Below, piece after piece: positions 27,615 through 62,424 of a stretch of 64,000 nt of DNA (its first letter is position 1; each line of letters begins with the position of its first letter). Origin of the DNA: a virus (Duplodnaviria; Caudoviricetes); IMG/VR virus record IMGVR_UViG_3300012344_000013, positions 62,577-126,576 of that record. The stretch is one strand, 5' to 3'. Both the position numbers and the translations under genes were made by a program. A model generated the notes under the pieces. It had not been told where the DNA came from, did no database searches, and saw only the letters and a list, made by a program, of their open reading frames with translations.

Positions 27615-28238
27615 ATGCGGAGAAAACATAATAAAATTATCGAAGATATACTCTTTTCTGAAAGTTATAGGGATATGACTACCAATGAGATGGTAGGTAT
27701 AGCTGAAGATGAATTTAGAACTTTTGATAATGATGAGCTTAAAATAGCTTTTCTAGAAAAAGCCTTTGAAAAATTAGAGCCTTCTGAACGTAGTTGCTCT
27801 TCTTACCAATGTGCTAAAGTGTTAGTAGAGAGTGGCTCTTTTGAAGGCGGAGGTTTTGATGAAATCGTAGAAGAGTTTAGAGAGTTTGAAGTAGGCGATG
27901 TAGCGCAGCTTAAAAGAGGAGTTTTTAAGAAAATTCCTGGTACAGCTTTACTTAAAACTAATCATATGTTTGTAATTGTAGATAATGAAAATGTATGCGA
28001 AATATCTTTTAAGAATTCTAAAGCTATTGAAAAGTTTCCTTTTAATATTCCTATAAACAACTGGAAAGCTGCTAATTTACATAGACCTAGTCATGTAAAA
28101 ACAGATACTTATGGAAAAGTAAGCGATTTTGATATTTTTAGAAAAATAGGCTATCTAACTGATTTTGATTTGAAGAGAGTTTTAGATTCTTACATAGATT
28201 CTCCGCAGAATACAATATTGGAGGAATTATCAAATTGA
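27615..28238 (+). CDS. Protein with acidic N-terminal region and C-terminal PemK/MazF-like domain
   Basis: FEVGDV...HMFVIV...ISFK...IPINNWKAANLHRPSHVKTD...IGYLT..D. Confidence 0.65.
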   Translation: MRRKHNKIIEDILFSESYRDMTTNEMVGIAEDEFRTFDNDELKIAFLEKAFEKLEPSERSCSSYQCAKVLVESGSFEGGGFDEIVEEFREFEVGDVAQLKRGVFKKIPGTALLKTNHMFVIVDNENVCEISFKNSKAIEKFPFNIPINNWKAANLHRPSHVKTDTYGKVSDFDIFRKIGYLTDFDLKRVLDSYIDSPQNTILEELSN

Positions 28239-56399: not shown

Positions 56400-56760
56400 A
56401 TTCCTTACGCGCACCCGTACGTACGCGTTATATAATAATATTTATATAAATATTTATATAATAATATTATAAATATATAATTATATAAATTATAATATAG
56501 ATATATAAATAATAATTAGTGTATTCTTAATATATTAAGAATACACCATATTAAAAATATATAATAAAATAATTATTATAAATATATATAATAAATTTAT
56601 ATAAAAGGCAGCAGCAGGAGAGAATTTAGCAATATACCGTAACACTTTAGTAAGAAAAAAAATAAATATAACTAAATCTATATGGTGTTAACAAACTATT
56701 TCTAAAATTTTATAGAATATATTTAACATAAACTATATTAATTGATTTTATAGATTTAAT
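56400..56760. other. Extremely AT-rich non-coding region with palindromes; putative replication origin
   Basis: ACGCG..GTACGTAC GCGT block, near-pure AT runs, palindrome GTGTATTCTTAATATATTAAGAATACAC. Confidence 0.45.
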
Positions 56761-56779
56761 TGATAGCTAAATTCAATGA

Positions 56780-57382
56780 TTGTATAATAATTATATTAAA
56801 ATAAAAAGGAATGATATTATGTATAATTACAATTTAGAAATACCAGTATCAATGGAAAGTAAAGCAACAGTATCAGGAAAAGAAATGCCACTAGAATCTG
56901 ATGATGTTATAGAAGATGCTTTTAGAAAACTGGCAAATGAAGTTAAGGGTAATTTAGATAAAAATGCTAATTTTATAACAGATGCTTTTGAATTAGATGT
57001 TTTTGAAGTATCTTATTCAGGAGATTTTGACGAAGATGAGGGAACTCTTTATCTTGATGTAGTAATAGATAAACCTATTGCAGAAGAAGAATTAGAGAAT
57101 TTCTTAGATAAATACTGTAAAGCAAATATAACTCATGTAGAAGCTTTAGACGAAGAAGTTATAACAGATGAGGATGATTCTATAGATGCTACTGTTGTTT
57201 ATAGAGTATCATTAAAAACATTTCCTAATTTAATTATAGTTAATGCAGAAGATGAACTTGTAGAAGAAGACCTTAGTGATTTTGATAAACGTTGGGATGC
57301 TGAGTTTGGTAAATATGCAGATAAGCCTATGCCAACAGAGGAAGCTCTTGCGGTTCTTAGGAGAATGATAGAATTCAAATGA
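56780..57382 (+). CDS. Acidic protein with C-terminal antitoxin-like peptide
   Basis: Ends LVEE|DLSDFDKRWDAEFGKYADKPMPTEEALAVLRRM; overlaps the YafQ gene (ATGA). Confidence 0.55.
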   Translation: MYNNYIKIKRNDIMYNYNLEIPVSMESKATVSGKEMPLESDDVIEDAFRKLANEVKGNLDKNANFITDAFELDVFEVSYSGDFDEDEGTLYLDVVIDKPIAEEELENFLDKYCKANITHVEALDEEVITDEDDSIDATVVYRVSLKTFPNLIIVNAEDELVEEDLSDFDKRWDAEFGKYADKPMPTEEALAVLRRMIEFK

Positions 57383-57744
57383 AGAATTTAGAATACAAAA
57401 AGAAAGCCTTACGAAAAATAAAGGTATTGAGAAGAAAACATTGTAATATAATTCTTAAAAAGTTAGAATCTGCATTGGAATTTATACAACAAGATACTTT
57501 AGATAAGCGTAAAAGTAATCACCCTTTACATGGAAATCATAGAGAACATAAAGAGTTACACATAAACGGAGATACACTACTTATTTACGAAATAGATTAT
57601 AGTACTAATACTACATATGTTTGTGATATTATAAACCATAAAGAGCTTAACGAATCTAATCTTATAGAAATAATAACTCCTAAAAGTCATCCTAATGGCG
57701 GGATAATAATTTCAAAAGAAGATTGGGAAGATTGGGATTGGTAG
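57379..57744 (+). CDS. YafQ/RelE-family toxin domain plus W/D-rich tail
   Basis: SNHPLHG...ELHINGDTLLIY...NHKEL, then NES..PNGGIIISKEDWEDWDW. Confidence 0.8.
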   Translation: MKNLEYKKKALRKIKVLRRKHCNIILKKLESALEFIQQDTLDKRKSNHPLHGNHREHKELHINGDTLLIYEIDYSTNTTYVCDIINHKELNESNLIEIITPKSHPNGGIIISKEDWEDWDW

Positions 57745-57749
57745 ATTAT

Positions 57750-58244
57750 ATGGAAAAGAAAAAATTATATATAAATAAAAATGCTGGAAATATAGAGGCT
57801 AATATTCAAGCTTTTAATAAGTCAACTTTTACAGGAGGTCTTATGGAAGCAGGTTCTGAAAAGCGCTATTTCTATTATTGGAGCCCTATATATCTCCATT
57901 CAACAGGAGAACTTTGGTCAGAAGATGAACAAGCTAGAACAAAGGCGGTTTCAAGAGAAAAAGCAATTTGCAATATCAAACATAAATTTTTTAGGCAATA
58001 TGGAAGAGCGTTTAATCTAAAAGATGAGTACTTACACGAAGAGCCTATAACGGATTATACGGAATTAGAGAATTCAGAAGAAGACCATGTAGAAGACCCC
58101 AAATATAATTTTGATGATATTGATAGGGAAGACGATTATATGGTAGAATCGAGTAATAAATTAGCTGCAAATGTGGAGGTAACAATAGATAAAGAAGGCC
58201 GTATTTTTATACCGAAAGATTTATGGGATGAGTGGGATTATTAG
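57750..58244 (+). CDS. Acidic multi-segment protein ending in AbrB-like W/D tail
   Basis: TIDKEGRIFIPKDLWDEWDY immediately upstream of the PemK gene. Confidence 0.6.
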   Translation: MEKKKLYINKNAGNIEANIQAFNKSTFTGGLMEAGSEKRYFYYWSPIYLHSTGELWSEDEQARTKAVSREKAICNIKHKFFRQYGRAFNLKDEYLHEEPITDYTELENSEEDHVEDPKYNFDDIDREDDYMVESSNKLAANVEVTIDKEGRIFIPKDLWDEWDY

Positions 58245-58679
58245 ATGAGCAAGTATGATATTTACTGGGCATATGTTTATTTTCAAGATACATATAATGG
58301 AAAAAGACGCCCTGTTATTCAATTAGATAATAACACTTTTGTACCGCTAATAGCACCTATAACTTCCCATGCAGCAAGGGACAGACTAGATTATTCAATT
58401 AAAGATTGGAGAGAGGCAGGCTTAACAAAACCTTCTATAATTCGTTTGTCTAAGAGAATAAAATTAAATAGGACTTTATTAGATTCTTATATTGGAAATT
58501 TATCCATAGAAGATTCAGAAGCACTAGATAAGTTGATAGAATCTATAATAAGCAATGAGAGGCTGGTAGAATCAAGTACAAACTATCACAATTGGAGAAT
58601 TAAACCTACTTTCTCAAATAAATATGATGGTAAAGGACATCTAATAGTACCAAAGGGGATTTATAGTGACTGGGATTAA
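58245..58679 (+). CDS. PemK/MazF-like toxin domain plus W/D tail
   Basis: YDIYWAYVYFQD...KRRPV...PITS...DWREAGLTKPSIIR...IGNLS..D, then DGKGHLIVPKGIYSDWD. Confidence 0.85.
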   Translation: MSKYDIYWAYVYFQDTYNGKRRPVIQLDNNTFVPLIAPITSHAARDRLDYSIKDWREAGLTKPSIIRLSKRIKLNRTLLDSYIGNLSIEDSEALDKLIESIISNERLVESSTNYHNWRIKPTFSNKYDGKGHLIVPKGIYSDWD

Positions 58680-60168
58680 AGAAAAAGAAATAAGTATGCC
58701 TTTAAGTGAGTTTGTAGATAATTCTTTAATTTATATTGTAGATGATGTGACAAAAGTAACCGCAAAAGATGTGGTAGAGGATTTTAGATTAGACCTTTGG
58801 GATGAGGGTATAGAAGAAGAGTATGTTCCAACGGGCGTTAAAGAGCGAATTACAGTTTCTAAATCCGATGTTAAAAAAACTATAAGAAATCTAAATACGC
58901 AAGCTTATATGATTCCCAGATACTATAAAACTGTTGATTTTATGAAAGAAAGAAGCTTAGATGAAAAGGAAATTCATGAGGCTGTTAAGAAGCTTTCTGT
59001 AGAAGATTATACATATAGTATATATTCTAAACATCCTGCTCATTTAGGAGATATTTTAGATGTATTTGTAGTTAAGAATAAAAATTTTGGTAATTCCAAA
59101 TTGGACAACTTAATCATATACATAAAAGTAGATGCATTTGAAAAACAAAAAGTTACTATAATATCATTTCACGAAGCAGAAAGAGATGGAAGTGATTTGA
59201 AGCCTTATAAAGAATCTATGGAAACTATTAAAACATTAAGTGATTTTATTGATAACTCAATAGTTGTGTTTACCAATGATATAGATTCTGTAGATGTAAA
59301 AGATATTGTAAATGGGTTTAAGAATGACTCTTGGGATGAAGATATTAAAGAAGATATCGAAACTCCTTCTGTGAAAAATTATAAAATTACTTTATCCAAA
59401 TCAGACGTAGAAAAAGCATTAAGTGATTTACAATATAAAGGTATTGTGTATGTAGATAGAGATAAGAATTCTTCTTTTAAGAATGAAAGAGGTCTTACAA
59501 GAAAAGAAATAATAGAAGCTATTAAAAAGTTAAGCACAGAAGATTATTCTTACAGTTTAGAATCTTCACATTTTTTATATCCTGGTCACATACTAAATGT
59601 ATTTGTAACTAAAAATGATTTAGGTAATGAGAAACTATCTAATTTGATTTTATATATAAAAATTGATACATATGAAAATGAATATGTAACAATAATATCT
59701 TTTCATGAAGCGGAGCGTGACGAAAGTAGTATGAATCCTTATAAAGAATCTATTTTTGAAACATTAAATGAAGATTTAGATGAACAAATAAAAGTTATTT
59801 TCAAGTGTAGTTTATACCAAGGTAATTCCTTAAAACCTGCTAATCTTGAGAATATAGATTTAGATATGGCTTTAAGAAGCGTGATAGCTAAAGACCTTAG
59901 AAACTTTATAGATAAATTCAATGCAGCAAATAATCTTAATTTAGACAATGAAGCTGAATGGACAAGATATGGAATTGATATAGATGATACTAATTTGGAC
60001 AACACTAAGTTAGCAAAAGTAAATCTTTTTGATAATGAAAACAATATAGAGAAAGCAGAAGAGCTATTAAAGAAATCGGGAGATTTTTCTAATAGTATGA
60101 TTTTACTTGATGATGAGGATGGGTATCATACGTTTACTATTACATATAAGATAGTAGATACTGAATAA
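58666..60168 (+). CDS. Polyprotein with two tandem [acidic peptide + MqsR-like toxin domain] units and a C-terminal domain
   Basis: KLS.EDY...L.VF...IYIK....IISFHEAE...PYKES occurs twice. Confidence 0.75.
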   Translation: MTGIKEKEISMPLSEFVDNSLIYIVDDVTKVTAKDVVEDFRLDLWDEGIEEEYVPTGVKERITVSKSDVKKTIRNLNTQAYMIPRYYKTVDFMKERSLDEKEIHEAVKKLSVEDYTYSIYSKHPAHLGDILDVFVVKNKNFGNSKLDNLIIYIKVDAFEKQKVTIISFHEAERDGSDLKPYKESMETIKTLSDFIDNSIVVFTNDIDSVDVKDIVNGFKNDSWDEDIKEDIETPSVKNYKITLSKSDVEKALSDLQYKGIVYVDRDKNSSFKNERGLTRKEIIEAIKKLSTEDYSYSLESSHFLYPGHILNVFVTKNDLGNEKLSNLILYIKIDTYENEYVTIISFHEAERDESSMNPYKESIFETLNEDLDEQIKVIFKCSLYQGNSLKPANLENIDLDMALRSVIAKDLRNFIDKFNAANNLNLDNEAEWTRYGIDIDDTNLDNTKLAKVNLFDNENNIEKAEELLKKSGDFSNSMILLDDEDGYHTFTITYKIVDTE

Positions 60169-60264
60169 GTTGTTGACAAAAATTTAATCTGGGCTTATAA
60201 TTAACATAAATAAAGGCTAAATTAAACGTATTAAAAAAAAAATACATTAAAGGAGTTTTTAACC

Positions 60265-61476
60265 ATGAAGATAAACATACAAGAATCTCTTAAAGAAAGA
60301 GATGCTGTAACTGGAAATAGATATAATCTGTACAGCAATTACTGTTCGCACACTTATACAGTAGAACAAAAGAAAAATATAGCAGAAGCTATTTACAAAG
60401 GAGCTACTGATAGAGAGCTACTTGAAATGGTAGATGATGCTGAAGTAGAATATAGAGAAGTTCAAGAATATGCTAGAGATAATTCCAATAGAAGATTTAG
60501 AGATGAAGATGGAAATATTTTTTCTATCTGGGATTTACTAAACGATTTTATTGATTGGGAATTAGATGATAAAGTAGAAGAAGAGCCTGATAAATCAGTA
60601 AAAGAATTATTTATTGATTATATTAGAAATTCCACAGATAAGAATGGAACTTTAGAAGAGATTAGAGAGAACTTAGAAGAAGCTTCTTATGGAGGAGCTT
60701 ATGACATAGATGACGACCAATATTTTACTAAAGAAGATTTAATGGAGTTTGCAGAAGAAGTAATGTATGTTTTACATACTAATGCAAAAGGACCTTTAGC
60801 TACTCCTGATTATACTGATTTGTATGTAGATGGAAATCAGATATTTATTACAGTAATAGATGAAGACGGAAATGAGTTTACTGATAAAATATCGGTTGAT
60901 TTTAGAAGAGTAAAGAGACTTTCAGATTTAATTTCTAAATATACCTTACCTCTTGCTGAGAGGATTATGGCCCAGGCAGATGATTTTTATAGGGATATAA
61001 ATGAGGGCTGTGGTAAAAAGAAGAAAAAGCTGATAAAAGAAGATGTAGATAGAGATTACGATTTCTATCTTAATCTAATAGATATCGATGTAAGGGACAT
61101 GCTTAAAGAATATCACGAAGCAGGAAATAGAACTCCTTCAGATATTTTGGTAGAGCAAGGTTACACTGATACTGATTCAGAAATCATGTATAGAGAAGTA
61201 AAAGATGGTGACCATACTTATAGACTAGTAATTGATTTTGAGCCAGTATGGGAAGATAATACAATTCATTATTACGTATTAAAAGATGGAAGGATTCCTT
61301 CTGGATATACTTATACTAAAACGGCTTTTGATGAAGAAGAATTGGAAGAAGATTTAGATGAAGTAATCCCCTATTACTATAAACCTGACGGAACGCTAGT
61401 AGCTGGATATAATCCAAAAACAGGGGCCTCTGTTGTACCTCACGATTGGTGCGAAGATTGGGATGAATGGGAATAG
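60265..61476 (+). CDS. Acidic polyprotein with multiple L-x-E sites and W/D tail
   Basis: IQE|S, LEE|A, INE|G, IKE|D, LDE|V; ends YNPKTGASVVPHDWCEDWDEWE. Confidence 0.6.
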   Translation: MKINIQESLKERDAVTGNRYNLYSNYCSHTYTVEQKKNIAEAIYKGATDRELLEMVDDAEVEYREVQEYARDNSNRRFRDEDGNIFSIWDLLNDFIDWELDDKVEEEPDKSVKELFIDYIRNSTDKNGTLEEIRENLEEASYGGAYDIDDDQYFTKEDLMEFAEEVMYVLHTNAKGPLATPDYTDLYVDGNQIFITVIDEDGNEFTDKISVDFRRVKRLSDLISKYTLPLAERIMAQADDFYRDINEGCGKKKKKLIKEDVDRDYDFYLNLIDIDVRDMLKEYHEAGNRTPSDILVEQGYTDTDSEIMYREVKDGDHTYRLVIDFEPVWEDNTIHYYVLKDGRIPSGYTYTKTAFDEEELEEDLDEVIPYYYKPDGTLVAGYNPKTGASVVPHDWCEDWDEWE

Positions 61477-61479
61477 TGC

Positions 61480-61623
61480 ATGGCTAAGAAGTATGATTTA
61501 TATGCGCATTTTGTAGAATATGATGATGTATCAGATGGAAAATACAGGCCAAAGTAGCAGGGTATGACCCTAAAAGCGGTGCAACACTTATTCTAAAAGA
61601 ATTGTATGATGAGTGGGATTAAC
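61480..61623 (+). pseudogene. PemK-plus-tail gene with internal deletion
   Basis: MAKKYDLYAHFVEYDDVSDGKYRP joined out of frame to VAGYDPKSGATLILKELYDEWD. Confidence 0.7.
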
Positions 61624-61647: not shown

Positions 61648-62424
61648 ATGGATAAAACAGATAAGCTTTGGGAACTTATGCGAGATGTAGATTCCTTAGA
61701 AGATATTTATGAAACAGAAGAGGGTTATATTGCTTTTGTTTTTGATTCTGAAGGGAATACAGATGAGAGAGTAGAGCAGATAATGAAGGGTTTAGATAAA
61801 GAAGGGTATATGAATTCTTTTGAAGAAACCAACGGCTCTAATGTAATTATATTCGATATTGATTTTGAAGATGAGTTAGAAGAAGCAGTAGTTAAATTTG
61901 AACCTAAATATATTCCAAGAGATTGGAAAGATGTTTATAATTTATTTGAAATCTTAGCTAATGAAGAAGATATTAGATATTTATGCAATAAACATAAAGG
62001 TGAAAAAGCTTGGGATACTGCTTGCGAGAAGTGGTTTGAAGATGATGAATTAGAGGAAGAGCTGCTAAATTTTAATGGGGGCACTTCCATTGAGTTTTTT
62101 GAATATAATGGTAAGTGCCCTATTGAGGAGTTTATAGATGACGTTTCTGACAAAAAGCTAAGAGCTAAAATATTTACAGATATGTGTAGACTTAGTGAGC
62201 TAGGCAGTAGAGCGAGAGAGCCCTTATCTTCTTACCAAGGTGACGGTATATTTGAGATGAGGACCAAACAAGGAAGCAATGTAACAAGGGCTTTTTACTT
62301 CTTTGCTATCGGTGATAAGATAGTGATGACTAATGGTTACGTAAAAAAATCTCAAAAGCGCGACGAAGCTCAATTCAAAAAAGCTAAAAAATATCGTGAT
62401 ATTTACAATTTAGATATGAGGTGA
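61648..62424 (+). CDS. Acidic polyprotein ending in RelE/HigB (Gp49-like) toxin domain
   Basis: IEFFE..GKCPIEEF...LRAKI...REPLS....GIFEMR....R.FYFF...IVMTNGYVKKSQK...AK. Confidence 0.85.
   Translation: MDKTDKLWELMRDVDSLEDIYETEEGYIAFVFDSEGNTDERVEQIMKGLDKEGYMNSFEETNGSNVIIFDIDFEDELEEAVVKFEPKYIPRDWKDVYNLFEILANEEDIRYLCNKHKGEKAWDTACEKWFEDDELEEELLNFNGGTSIEFFEYNGKCPIEEFIDDVSDKKLRAKIFTDMCRLSELGSRAREPLSSYQGDGIFEMRTKQGSNVTRAFYFFAIGDKIVMTNGYVKKSQKRDEAQFKKAKKYRDIYNLDMR

What the first reader, a model, noticed from the sequence alone, without database searches (positions are those of the whole stretch)
57660..61623. Five copies of a portable C-terminal 'D/N-x-x-G...P-K...W-D' peptide appended to unrelated proteins
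Seen: HPNGGIIISKEDWEDWDW (on YafQ), IDKEGRIFIPKDLWDEWDY, YDGKGHLIVPKGIYSDWD (on PemK), YNPKTGASVVPHDWCEDWDEWE and YDPKSGATLILKELYDEWD. In the four intact genes the tail follows an L/M-x-E site; two sit directly upstream of a pemK start. Known: the IDxxGRIxIPK hairpin resembles AbrB/MazE, and acidic Trp tails bind MazF. Inference: a diversified family of releasable anti-PemK/MazF peptides with different specificities, shuffled onto carrier proteins.
Basis: partly seen in the sequence, partly recalled or inferred. Interest (0 to 1): 0.8.

Follow-up and report, generated by a model that had tools for sequence, protein, structure and literature searches.

The report
Portable anti-PemK antitoxin tail in phage
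Five neighbouring genes at the end of a large phage genome end in the same short peptide, which matches the tail of the bacterial antitoxins that sit next to the same PemK toxin family; it is therefore most likely a movable toxin-blocking piece that the phage has moved onto unrelated proteins, including toxins.

Summary
Five homologous C-terminal tails, each a beta-hairpin-like D/N-x-x-G-h-h-h-P-K followed by an acidic Trp/Tyr end, lie in window 57688-61619. They are the only such tails in the 126.6-kb phage genome.

They end YafQ, a 164-aa protein, PemK, a 403-aa protein and a broken PemK. In this phage and its relatives, all 10 PemK cores follow a tail-bearing ORF, separated by at most 5 nt or overlapping it.

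The closest cellular PemK relatives (35 loci in Bacillota and other groups) are preceded by Panacea (PanA) or RelB antitoxins. Their C-termini carry the same motif, for example EGRHDENGHLILPEDTYPDWDEE. A phage-tail HMM ranks these C-termini as the top 11 of 1,726 ORFs.

The tail is therefore best read as the exchangeable "linear neutralising element" of antitoxins for one PemK/MazF subfamily. The phage has no Panacea domain and has moved the tail onto other carriers by recombination. Related phages show the junctions.

The comparative evidence supports "anti-PemK" and "shuffled". It does not support "releasable at L/M-x-E" or "AbrB-like". Binding was not tested because the complex predictor was closed.

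This is a new variant of a known kind. The scan had noted this stretch before, on the same genome only.

The parts
56760..56788 (+). Sigma-70-like promoter (11 of 12 matches) heading the first operon of the toxin cluster
56819..57382 (+). 187-aa acidic protein. In related phages the same body ends in a tail. Here it ends in a different C-terminal module (57263-57379). It overlaps the YafQ start by 4 nt.
57379..57744 (+). YafQ/RelE-type toxin (121 aa) carrying tail copy 1 at 57688-57741
   Evidence: Pfam PF15738 2e-11; tail HMM 7e-14. In L012 the same tail ends the acidic 182-aa protein upstream of a PemK.
57750..58244 (+). 164-aa carrier protein with tail copy 2 at 58185-58241. Its stop codon abuts the PemK start codon. 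In L007 its body is fused behind a PemK core.
58245..58679 (+). PemK/MazF-type toxin (144 aa; core residues 1-112) with its own tail, copy 3, at 58623-58676
   Evidence: Pfam PF02452 3e-8; family-conserved R22 and T40 kept; AF2 core pLDDT above 90, tail 37-57
58666..60168 (+). 500-aa protein with two MqsR-like units. It overlaps the PemK end and has no PemK-like part.
60173..60201 (+). Perfect sigma-70-like promoter (12 of 12 matches) heading the second operon
60265..61476 (+). 403-aa carrier protein with tail copy 4 at 61408-61473. This tail variant sits on PemK152 in related phages.
61480..61622 (+). Broken PemK gene: 25 N-terminal codons (61480-61557), a frame break and internal deletion, then 31 C-terminal codons with tail copy 5 at 61563-61619
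61648..62424 (+). 258-aa protein with an acidic N-terminal part plus a Gp49/HigB-like toxin domain; the next gene of the cluster
   Evidence: Pfam PF05973 3e-16; no PemK-like part

Best explanation
The tail is the toxin-binding end-piece of the antitoxins of one PemK/MazF subfamily, the one with the conserved D-W-R/K-E-A-G-L motif. In bacteria and archaea this end-piece finishes Panacea-domain (PanA) or RelB-type antitoxins, which are encoded directly upstream of the toxin.

In this virulent-type phage and its relatives the end-piece has been separated from those scaffolds. Recombination inside a very fluid, early-transcribed array of toxin genes at the right genome end has joined it to unrelated carriers and to the toxins YafQ and PemK.

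Each PemK gene lacks a normal ribosome-binding site. It starts at or within a few bases of the stop codon of a tail-bearing ORF, so tail and toxin would be made together.

Inferred, not shown: the hairpin plus acidic Trp/Tyr end occupies the RNA-binding groove of the PemK dimer, as the C-terminal regions of MazE, Kis and PemI do. Tails left on YafQ, on PemK and on the 403-aa protein are partly products of deletions between tail-coding repeats. They may still act in trans.
For: 1. Tail-PemK linkage. Tail and PemK HMMs run over the phage genome and 7 related loci show that every PemK core (10 of 10, at least 5 non-orthologous pairs) follows a tail ORF with a gap of 0-5 nt or an overlap. This includes minimal 49- and 51-aa tail proteins (L004, L008). 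The 487-aa protein downstream of the 51-aa protein has a PemK-like N-terminus (hhalign 97.5%).

2. Cellular counterparts. In 35 loci of the closest PemK relatives there is an upstream antitoxin; 9 of 10 tested are SocA_Panacea and one is RelB. It ends in G-Y-R-D-E-x-G-x-L-V-L-P-K-E-Y-D plus acidic residues. The phage-tail HMM ranks these C-termini as the top 11 of 1,726 ORFs, best E 3.8e-4 and 2.3e-3.

3. Specificity controls (n=2). A PanA paired with an MqsR-like toxin has no tail. A PanA paired with a different PemK-like subfamily has an acidic-aromatic end without the hairpin.

4. No Panacea domain in the phage genome.

5. Portability.
- p403's tail matches PemK152's tail in L007 and L012.
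- L012 p168 is the p164 body joined to PemK's tail at MVESS.
- The L001 155-aa protein keeps only ISKEDWDW after loss of YafQ.

6. Selection. Orthologous tails differ by as many or more synonymous than non-synonymous codons.

7. Concept. Exchangeable "linear" neutralising elements on PanA are documented (PMC10440598), and PanA-PemK pairs are known (PMC8832971).
Against: - No binding or neutralisation was tested.
- AF2 of full-length PemK leaves its own tail at low confidence, pLDDT 37-57.
- The reciprocal HMM, built only from the cellular tails, scores the phage tails weakly (best E 0.13), although they rank first.
- About half of the phage tails are not followed by a PemK core. They sit on PemK itself or precede the p164, MqsR-like or Gp49-like genes, so their present role is unclear.
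- One copy lies in a pseudogene.
Confidence: 0.7

Rival explanations
1. Vestige reading. The tails in the phage are mostly non-functional leftovers. Deletions between repeated tail-coding stretches remove toxins and automatically leave an in-frame hybrid tail. On this reading the tails on YafQ, PemK and p403 have no present role.
For: - Junctions lie inside tail or linker homology: p403 against p400 plus PemK152, and L012 p168 at MVESS.
- One tail sits in a pseudogene.
- The L001 155-aa protein keeps only 8 tail residues.
Against: - Orthologous tails show as many or more synonymous than non-synonymous codon changes, and keep the G, the h-h-h-P-K stretch and W-D.
- Every intact PemK still has an intact tail upstream.
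- Tails persist in at least four phage lineages.
Confidence: 0.12
2. Capsid-cargo reading. The tail is a capsid-targeting or processing signal. The T4-type prohead protease would cut at the L/I/M-x-E site upstream of the tail, releasing either the peptide or a packaged, injected toxin.
For: - The genome encodes an S77 T4-type prohead protease, 1e-13.
- [LIM]-x-E lies within 30 residues upstream of the tail in 15 of 17 phage tail proteins, against 7.2 expected from whole-protein composition.
Against: - The same tail ends chromosomal PanA and RelB antitoxins in bacteria and archaea, which have no capsid.
- The 17 proteins represent only about 9 independent lineages, and the linkers are locally acidic, which inflates the count.
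- Two proteins lack the triplet (L012 182-aa and 56-aa).
- MVESS/LVESS is a recombination junction.
- The known T4 targeting sequence is N-terminal (established knowledge).
Confidence: 0.06
3. AbrB reading. The tail is half of an AbrB/MazE/MraZ-type swapped-hairpin domain. It would act by tail-tail pairing (oligomerisation or DNA binding) rather than by binding the toxin core.
For: - The p164 copy has sub-threshold matches to MraZ (E 0.012 for the whole protein, 0.00085 for the tail alone) and to AbrB TIGR01439 (E 0.03).
- The carrier tail and the tail of the PemK downstream of it belong to the same sequence class.
Against: - Only 1 of 8 tails tested matches, over 14 of 44 profile positions and below the cut-off.
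- No Pfam MazE_antitoxin hit.
- A PDB profile search gives nothing significant.
- Many PemK partners have no tail of their own (P0003, P0047, all cellular ones), so tail-tail pairing cannot be general.
Confidence: 0.05

Closest known systems
PanA (Panacea/SocA, PF13274) antitoxins with 'linear' neutralising elements (Kurata 2022, PMC8832971; Ernits 2023, PMC10440598)
   Same: - An exchangeable terminal element, not the scaffold domain, is proposed to neutralise the toxin.
- PanA-PemK pairs exist.
- The cellular relatives of the phage PemK are paired with PanA proteins that end in the same motif.
   Different: - The phage proteins have no Panacea domain.
- The elements named in the main text I searched are Phd-C, ZBD and PAD1. 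I did not find this hairpin-acidic element for PemK described there; the supplements were not read.
- Here the element also sits on toxins.
MazE/PemI/Kis antitoxins of MazF/PemK/Kid
   Same: - The antitoxin gene lies upstream of the toxin gene.
- An acidic, Trp-containing C-terminal region binds the toxin dimer (established knowledge).
- The toxin profile matches solved MazF structures at E about 1e-7.
   Different: - There is no AbrB or RHH DNA-binding domain on the phage carriers.
- The tail gives no significant match to the MazE_antitoxin, MraZ or AbrB models.
Phage inhibitors of host toxins: phi3T AimX/YosL against MazF (PMC10769878) and T4 Dmd against RnlA/LsoA
   Same: Phage-encoded small proteins that bind and inactivate a toxin RNase.
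   Different: - Those act on host toxins and are not derived from the cognate antitoxin's tail.
- Here the phage also carries the toxins, and a host target is only a hypothesis.
Fused toxin-antitoxin proteins such as CapRel (cited in PMC10440598)
   Same: One polypeptide carries both a toxin domain and an antitoxin element, as PemK-plus-tail and YafQ-plus-tail do here.
   Different: - No evidence that the tail acts in cis.
- YafQ is a different toxin fold from the tail's partner.

Membership tests
PemK/MazF toxin (PF02452) | Match to the family model over its whole length | tested here: met
   PF02452 3e-8, positions 3-108 of 109; PHROG MazF-like 6e-16; profile matches solved MazF at 1e-7; AF2 core pLDDT above 90
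PemK/MazF toxin (PF02452) | Conserved Arg and Thr positions of the family. These are the catalytic Arg and Thr of MazF by established knowledge; I did not map them onto a solved structure. | tested here: met
   R22 is invariant and T40 is conserved in at least 90% of 115 homologues; both are present in the window protein
Type II toxin-antitoxin module | Antitoxin ORF directly upstream of the toxin and translationally coupled to it | tested here: met
   Gap of 0 nt (58244/58245) and 3 nt (61476/61480), with no canonical SD; 10 of 10 PemK cores in phage loci
Type II toxin-antitoxin module | Antitoxin binds and neutralises the toxin | not testable with these tools
   The complex predictor was closed. 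The single-chain read-through model gives tail pLDDT 75-78, but no coordinates were available.
PanA (Panacea-domain antitoxin) | Presence of the SocA_Panacea domain | tested here: not met
   No PF13274 match anywhere in the phage genome. The cellular partners have it, 9 of 10 tested.
C-terminal element of PanA/RelB antitoxins paired with DW(R/K)EAGL-type PemK | C-terminal position, the D-x-x-G-h-h-h-P-K/A-E-h-D motif with an acidic end, and a PemK gene immediately downstream | tested here: met
   Alignment of 32 distinct cellular tails. The phage-tail HMM ranks them as the top 11 of 1,726 ORFs, best E 3.8e-4. The reciprocal HMM is weak (E 0.13) but ranks the phage tails first.
AbrB/MazE/MraZ swapped-hairpin domain | Match to the roughly 45-residue looped-hinge-helix domain model | tested here: not met
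   Only the p164 copy matches: MraZ 16 bits (cut-off 23) and TIGR01439 14 bits (cut-off 28.3), covering 14 of 44 positions. The other seven tails tested do not match.
T4-type capsid-targeted, protease-processed internal protein | Targeting peptide bounded by an L/I-x-E site that is conserved among orthologues, with the protein present in virions | tested here: inconclusive
   S77 protease is present. The triplet occurs in 15 of 17 proteins against 7.2 expected, but the lineages are not independent and the linkers are acidic. Virion content is not testable.

The most novel reading that the evidence does not exclude
The most novel reading that the evidence does not exclude is a decoy-antitoxin set. 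On this reading a virulent phage has taken the toxin-binding tail from host PanA antitoxins. It expresses a diversified set of these tails early, from strong host-type promoters, on stable carrier proteins and even on its own RNase toxins. The tails would act as decoy antitoxins that disarm host PanA-PemK abortive-infection systems of several specificities.
Probability: 0.25. Interest if true: 0.8.

Novelty: new variant of a known kind. Interest (0 to 1): 0.6.

Why it matters
- It points to a short, conserved, transferable peptide as the likely PemK-neutralising element of a widespread group of Panacea- and RelB-type antitoxins. A truncation or peptide assay could test this directly.
- It shows a natural case in which that element has been moved between scaffolds many times, in the early region of a large lytic-type phage. 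This includes toxin-plus-antitoxin-element chimeras.
- If the tails also act on host PemK toxins, this would be a compact, diversifying phage counter-defence derived from the defence system's own antitoxin.

Tried and rejected
- **AF2 of full-length PemK:** the core is confident, the protein's own tail is not. This is uninformative about cis docking.
- **AF2 of the natural read-through (TAG=Q), p164 tail plus PemK core:** tail pLDDT 75-78. No coordinates are available and there is no linker, so it is not used as evidence.
- **First mixed alignment for that model (A7):** it misplaced the divergent tails onto the PemK region and was discarded.
- **megablast and tblastn against GenBank phages:** no close relative.
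- **IMG/VR scan with PemK:** nothing.
- **Tail profile against PDB sequences:** nothing significant.
- **Pfam, NCBIfam and PHROGs on the tails:** no family.
- **Multi-stretch hits of the tail profile** (P0026, P0028, P0031 and others): judged unrelated, because they are long proteins matching only part of the profile several times and have no acidic Trp end.
- **Genome scan with the 30-sequence PemK alignment (A9):** It was repeated with 7 sequences.
- **Cryptic PemK parts in the 500-aa and 258-aa proteins downstream of tails:** none found.
Full report
**Setting**

The window is the right half of a single 126,576-bp virus record with direct terminal repeats. The phage has a large, lytic-type gene set:
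- UvsX-like recombinase, clamp loader, SbcCD, NrdD and a glucosyltransferase
- a T4-type S77 prohead protease
- about 30% G+C, with nearly all genes on one strand

No close relative is in GenBank phages. The finding lies in the last 8 kb. That stretch is packed with toxin-type domains: YafQ, PemK, two MqsR-like units in one 500-aa protein, a Gp49/HigB-like domain and SAM-lyase-like proteins. Two near-perfect host-type promoters, at 56760 and 60173, head two operons.

**Observation**

All five peptides are present as described. The fifth belongs to a broken pemK. It keeps 25 N-terminal codons (MAKKYDLYAHFVEYDDVSDGKYRPK, then a stop). About 300 nt are missing and the frame shifts. The last 31 codons then follow, and they align with the C-terminus of the intact PemK.

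A six-frame scan of the whole genome, and an HMM built from the tails, find this tail only at these five places.

**Relatives show the tail is portable**

Metagenomic contigs of related phages (L001/L002, L007, L012) carry the same cluster in rearranged form.
- In L012 the acidic protein that precedes YafQ in the window itself ends in the "YafQ" tail and is followed by a PemK.
- In L001 YafQ is absent, and the acidic protein ends in the last eight tail residues.
- In L007 the body of the 164-aa protein is fused behind a PemK core (78% identity).
- In L012 that same body is joined, at the shared MVESS/LVESS stretch, to the tail that PemK carries in the window.
- The orthologue of the 403-aa protein (400 aa, 89% identity in L007) ends in ...TLIPKDLYDEWD and is followed by an intact 152-aa PemK ending in ...VPxDWCDDWDEWESEDE.
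- In the window the 403-aa protein carries that PemK-type variant, and the broken PemK carries the other one.

These patterns fit deletions and exchanges between tail-coding repeats. Orthologous tails differ by as many or more synonymous than non-synonymous codons, so the peptide itself is under constraint.

**Link to PemK**

A profile of eight tails, searched against 1.84 billion proteins, recovered further true tails outside this lineage:
- a 49-aa protein
- a 51-aa protein
- a 132-aa protein with two tails
- more PemK-plus-tail proteins

Each small tail protein overlaps the start of a PemK-type gene. The 487-aa protein downstream of the 51-aa one has a PemK-like N-terminus (hhalign 97.5%).

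With tail and PemK HMMs run over all phage loci, every one of the 10 PemK cores is directly preceded by a tail ORF. In the window these PemK starts have no canonical ribosome-binding site, which sets them apart from the first gene of operon 2 (p403) and from the Gp49-like gene. This suggests translational coupling.

**Cellular counterpart**

The closest cellular relatives of the phage PemK share the D-W-R/K-E-A-G-L motif. They were found in 35 genomes: Veillonella, Megasphaera, Clostridia, Lachnospiraceae, Oscillospiraceae, Mucispirillum and Methanomassiliicoccus.

In nearly all of them the upstream, overlapping gene encodes a 180-200-aa protein. Nine of ten tested are SocA_Panacea, and one is a 106-aa RelB-domain protein. 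Their C-termini align to G-Y-R-D-E-x-G-x-L-V-L-P-K/A-E-Y/W-D plus acidic residues, sometimes with Trp. The Methanomassiliicoccus examples, EGRH-D-K/E-D/N-GHLILP-V/E-DTYPDWDE, are strikingly close to the phage YDGKGHLIVPKGIYSDWD.

The phage-tail HMM ranks these antitoxin C-termini as the top 11 of 1,726 ORFs in those loci, with best E-values of 3.8e-4 and 2.3e-3. The reverse HMM is weak (E 0.13) but ranks the phage tails first.

Two PanA proteins with other partners serve as controls. One is paired with an MqsR-like toxin and has no tail. The other is paired with a different PemK-like subfamily and has an acidic, aromatic end without the hairpin. The phage genome has no Panacea domain.

**Interpretation**

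Ernits et al. 2023 (PMC10440598) describe "linear neutralisation". In it, exchangeable elements attached to Panacea (Phd-C, ZBD, PAD1) do the neutralising. Kurata et al. 2022 (PMC8832971) report PanA paired with PemK-type toxins.

The tail fits this scheme as a PemK-specific element. The main text I searched in those papers does not mention such an element. In the phage the tail has been uncoupled from its usual scaffolds.

How it blocks PemK is inferred by analogy with the acidic, Trp-bearing C-terminal regions of MazE, Kis and PemI. It was not tested, because the complex predictor was closed. The two single-chain AF2 runs are not decisive.

**What remains unclear**

About half of the phage tails are not followed by a PemK.
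- Some sit on PemK itself.
- Some precede the p164, MqsR-like or Gp49-like genes, and those proteins have no PemK-like part.

These tails may be vestiges of deletions, may act in trans on other phage or host PemK toxins, or may act in cis.

**Protease-release idea**

The idea cannot be excluded. An S77 protease is present, and [LIM]-x-E occurs upstream of 15 of 17 tails against 7.2 expected. It is weakened by the non-independence of those proteins, by the acidic linkers, by the MVESS junction, and above all by the presence of the same tail on cellular antitoxins.

**AbrB/MazE likeness**

It holds for one copy only, and below threshold.

**Verdict**

The reading as anti-PemK and shuffled is supported by comparative evidence. 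The readings as releasable and AbrB-like are not supported.

This is a new variant of a known kind: a modular type II antitoxin element. Its possible counter-defence role is interesting but unproven.

Noticed in passing
window 57263-57379; L012:10001-10438: A second portable C-terminal module (EEDLSDFDKRWDAEFGKYADKPMPTEEALAVLRRMIEFK) ends the acidic protein just before YafQ. In a related phage it ends a PemK (P0047). It may be the YafQ-neutralising counterpart of the tail.
   Followed up: partly
window 27615-28238: A 207-aa protein just upstream of NrdD has a partial PemK-like C-terminal half (own-profile E 2e-7; Pfam E 0.012). No tail-bearing ORF lies upstream of it.
   Followed up: no
window 58666-60168: A 500-aa protein holds two tandem MqsR-like units. 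Related phages carry a 321/322-aa version instead; only the L007 copy gave a weak, single MqsR-like match.
   Followed up: partly
window 56760-56788 and 60173-60201: Two near-perfect sigma-70-type promoters (11 of 12 and 12 of 12 matches) head the toxin cluster. This suggests early transcription by the host polymerase.
   Followed up: no
L003:1155-2702: In another phage lineage, a 516-aa protein with an S77 prohead-protease domain lies about 450 nt downstream of the tail-less PemK P0003.
   Followed up: no
L001, L007 and L012, downstream of the cluster: Related phages encode dockerin-domain proteins, and L001 also a 1,398-aa LRR protein, next to the cluster. This hints at a cellulosome-bearing Clostridia host.
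   Followed up: no
L015/L016:2840-3004: A 54-aa protein overlaps the start of another PemK relative. It ends in an acidic Trp stretch (SDDEWRQETHWDELYERLATK) without the hairpin, so it is a different minimal antitoxin type.
   Followed up: no
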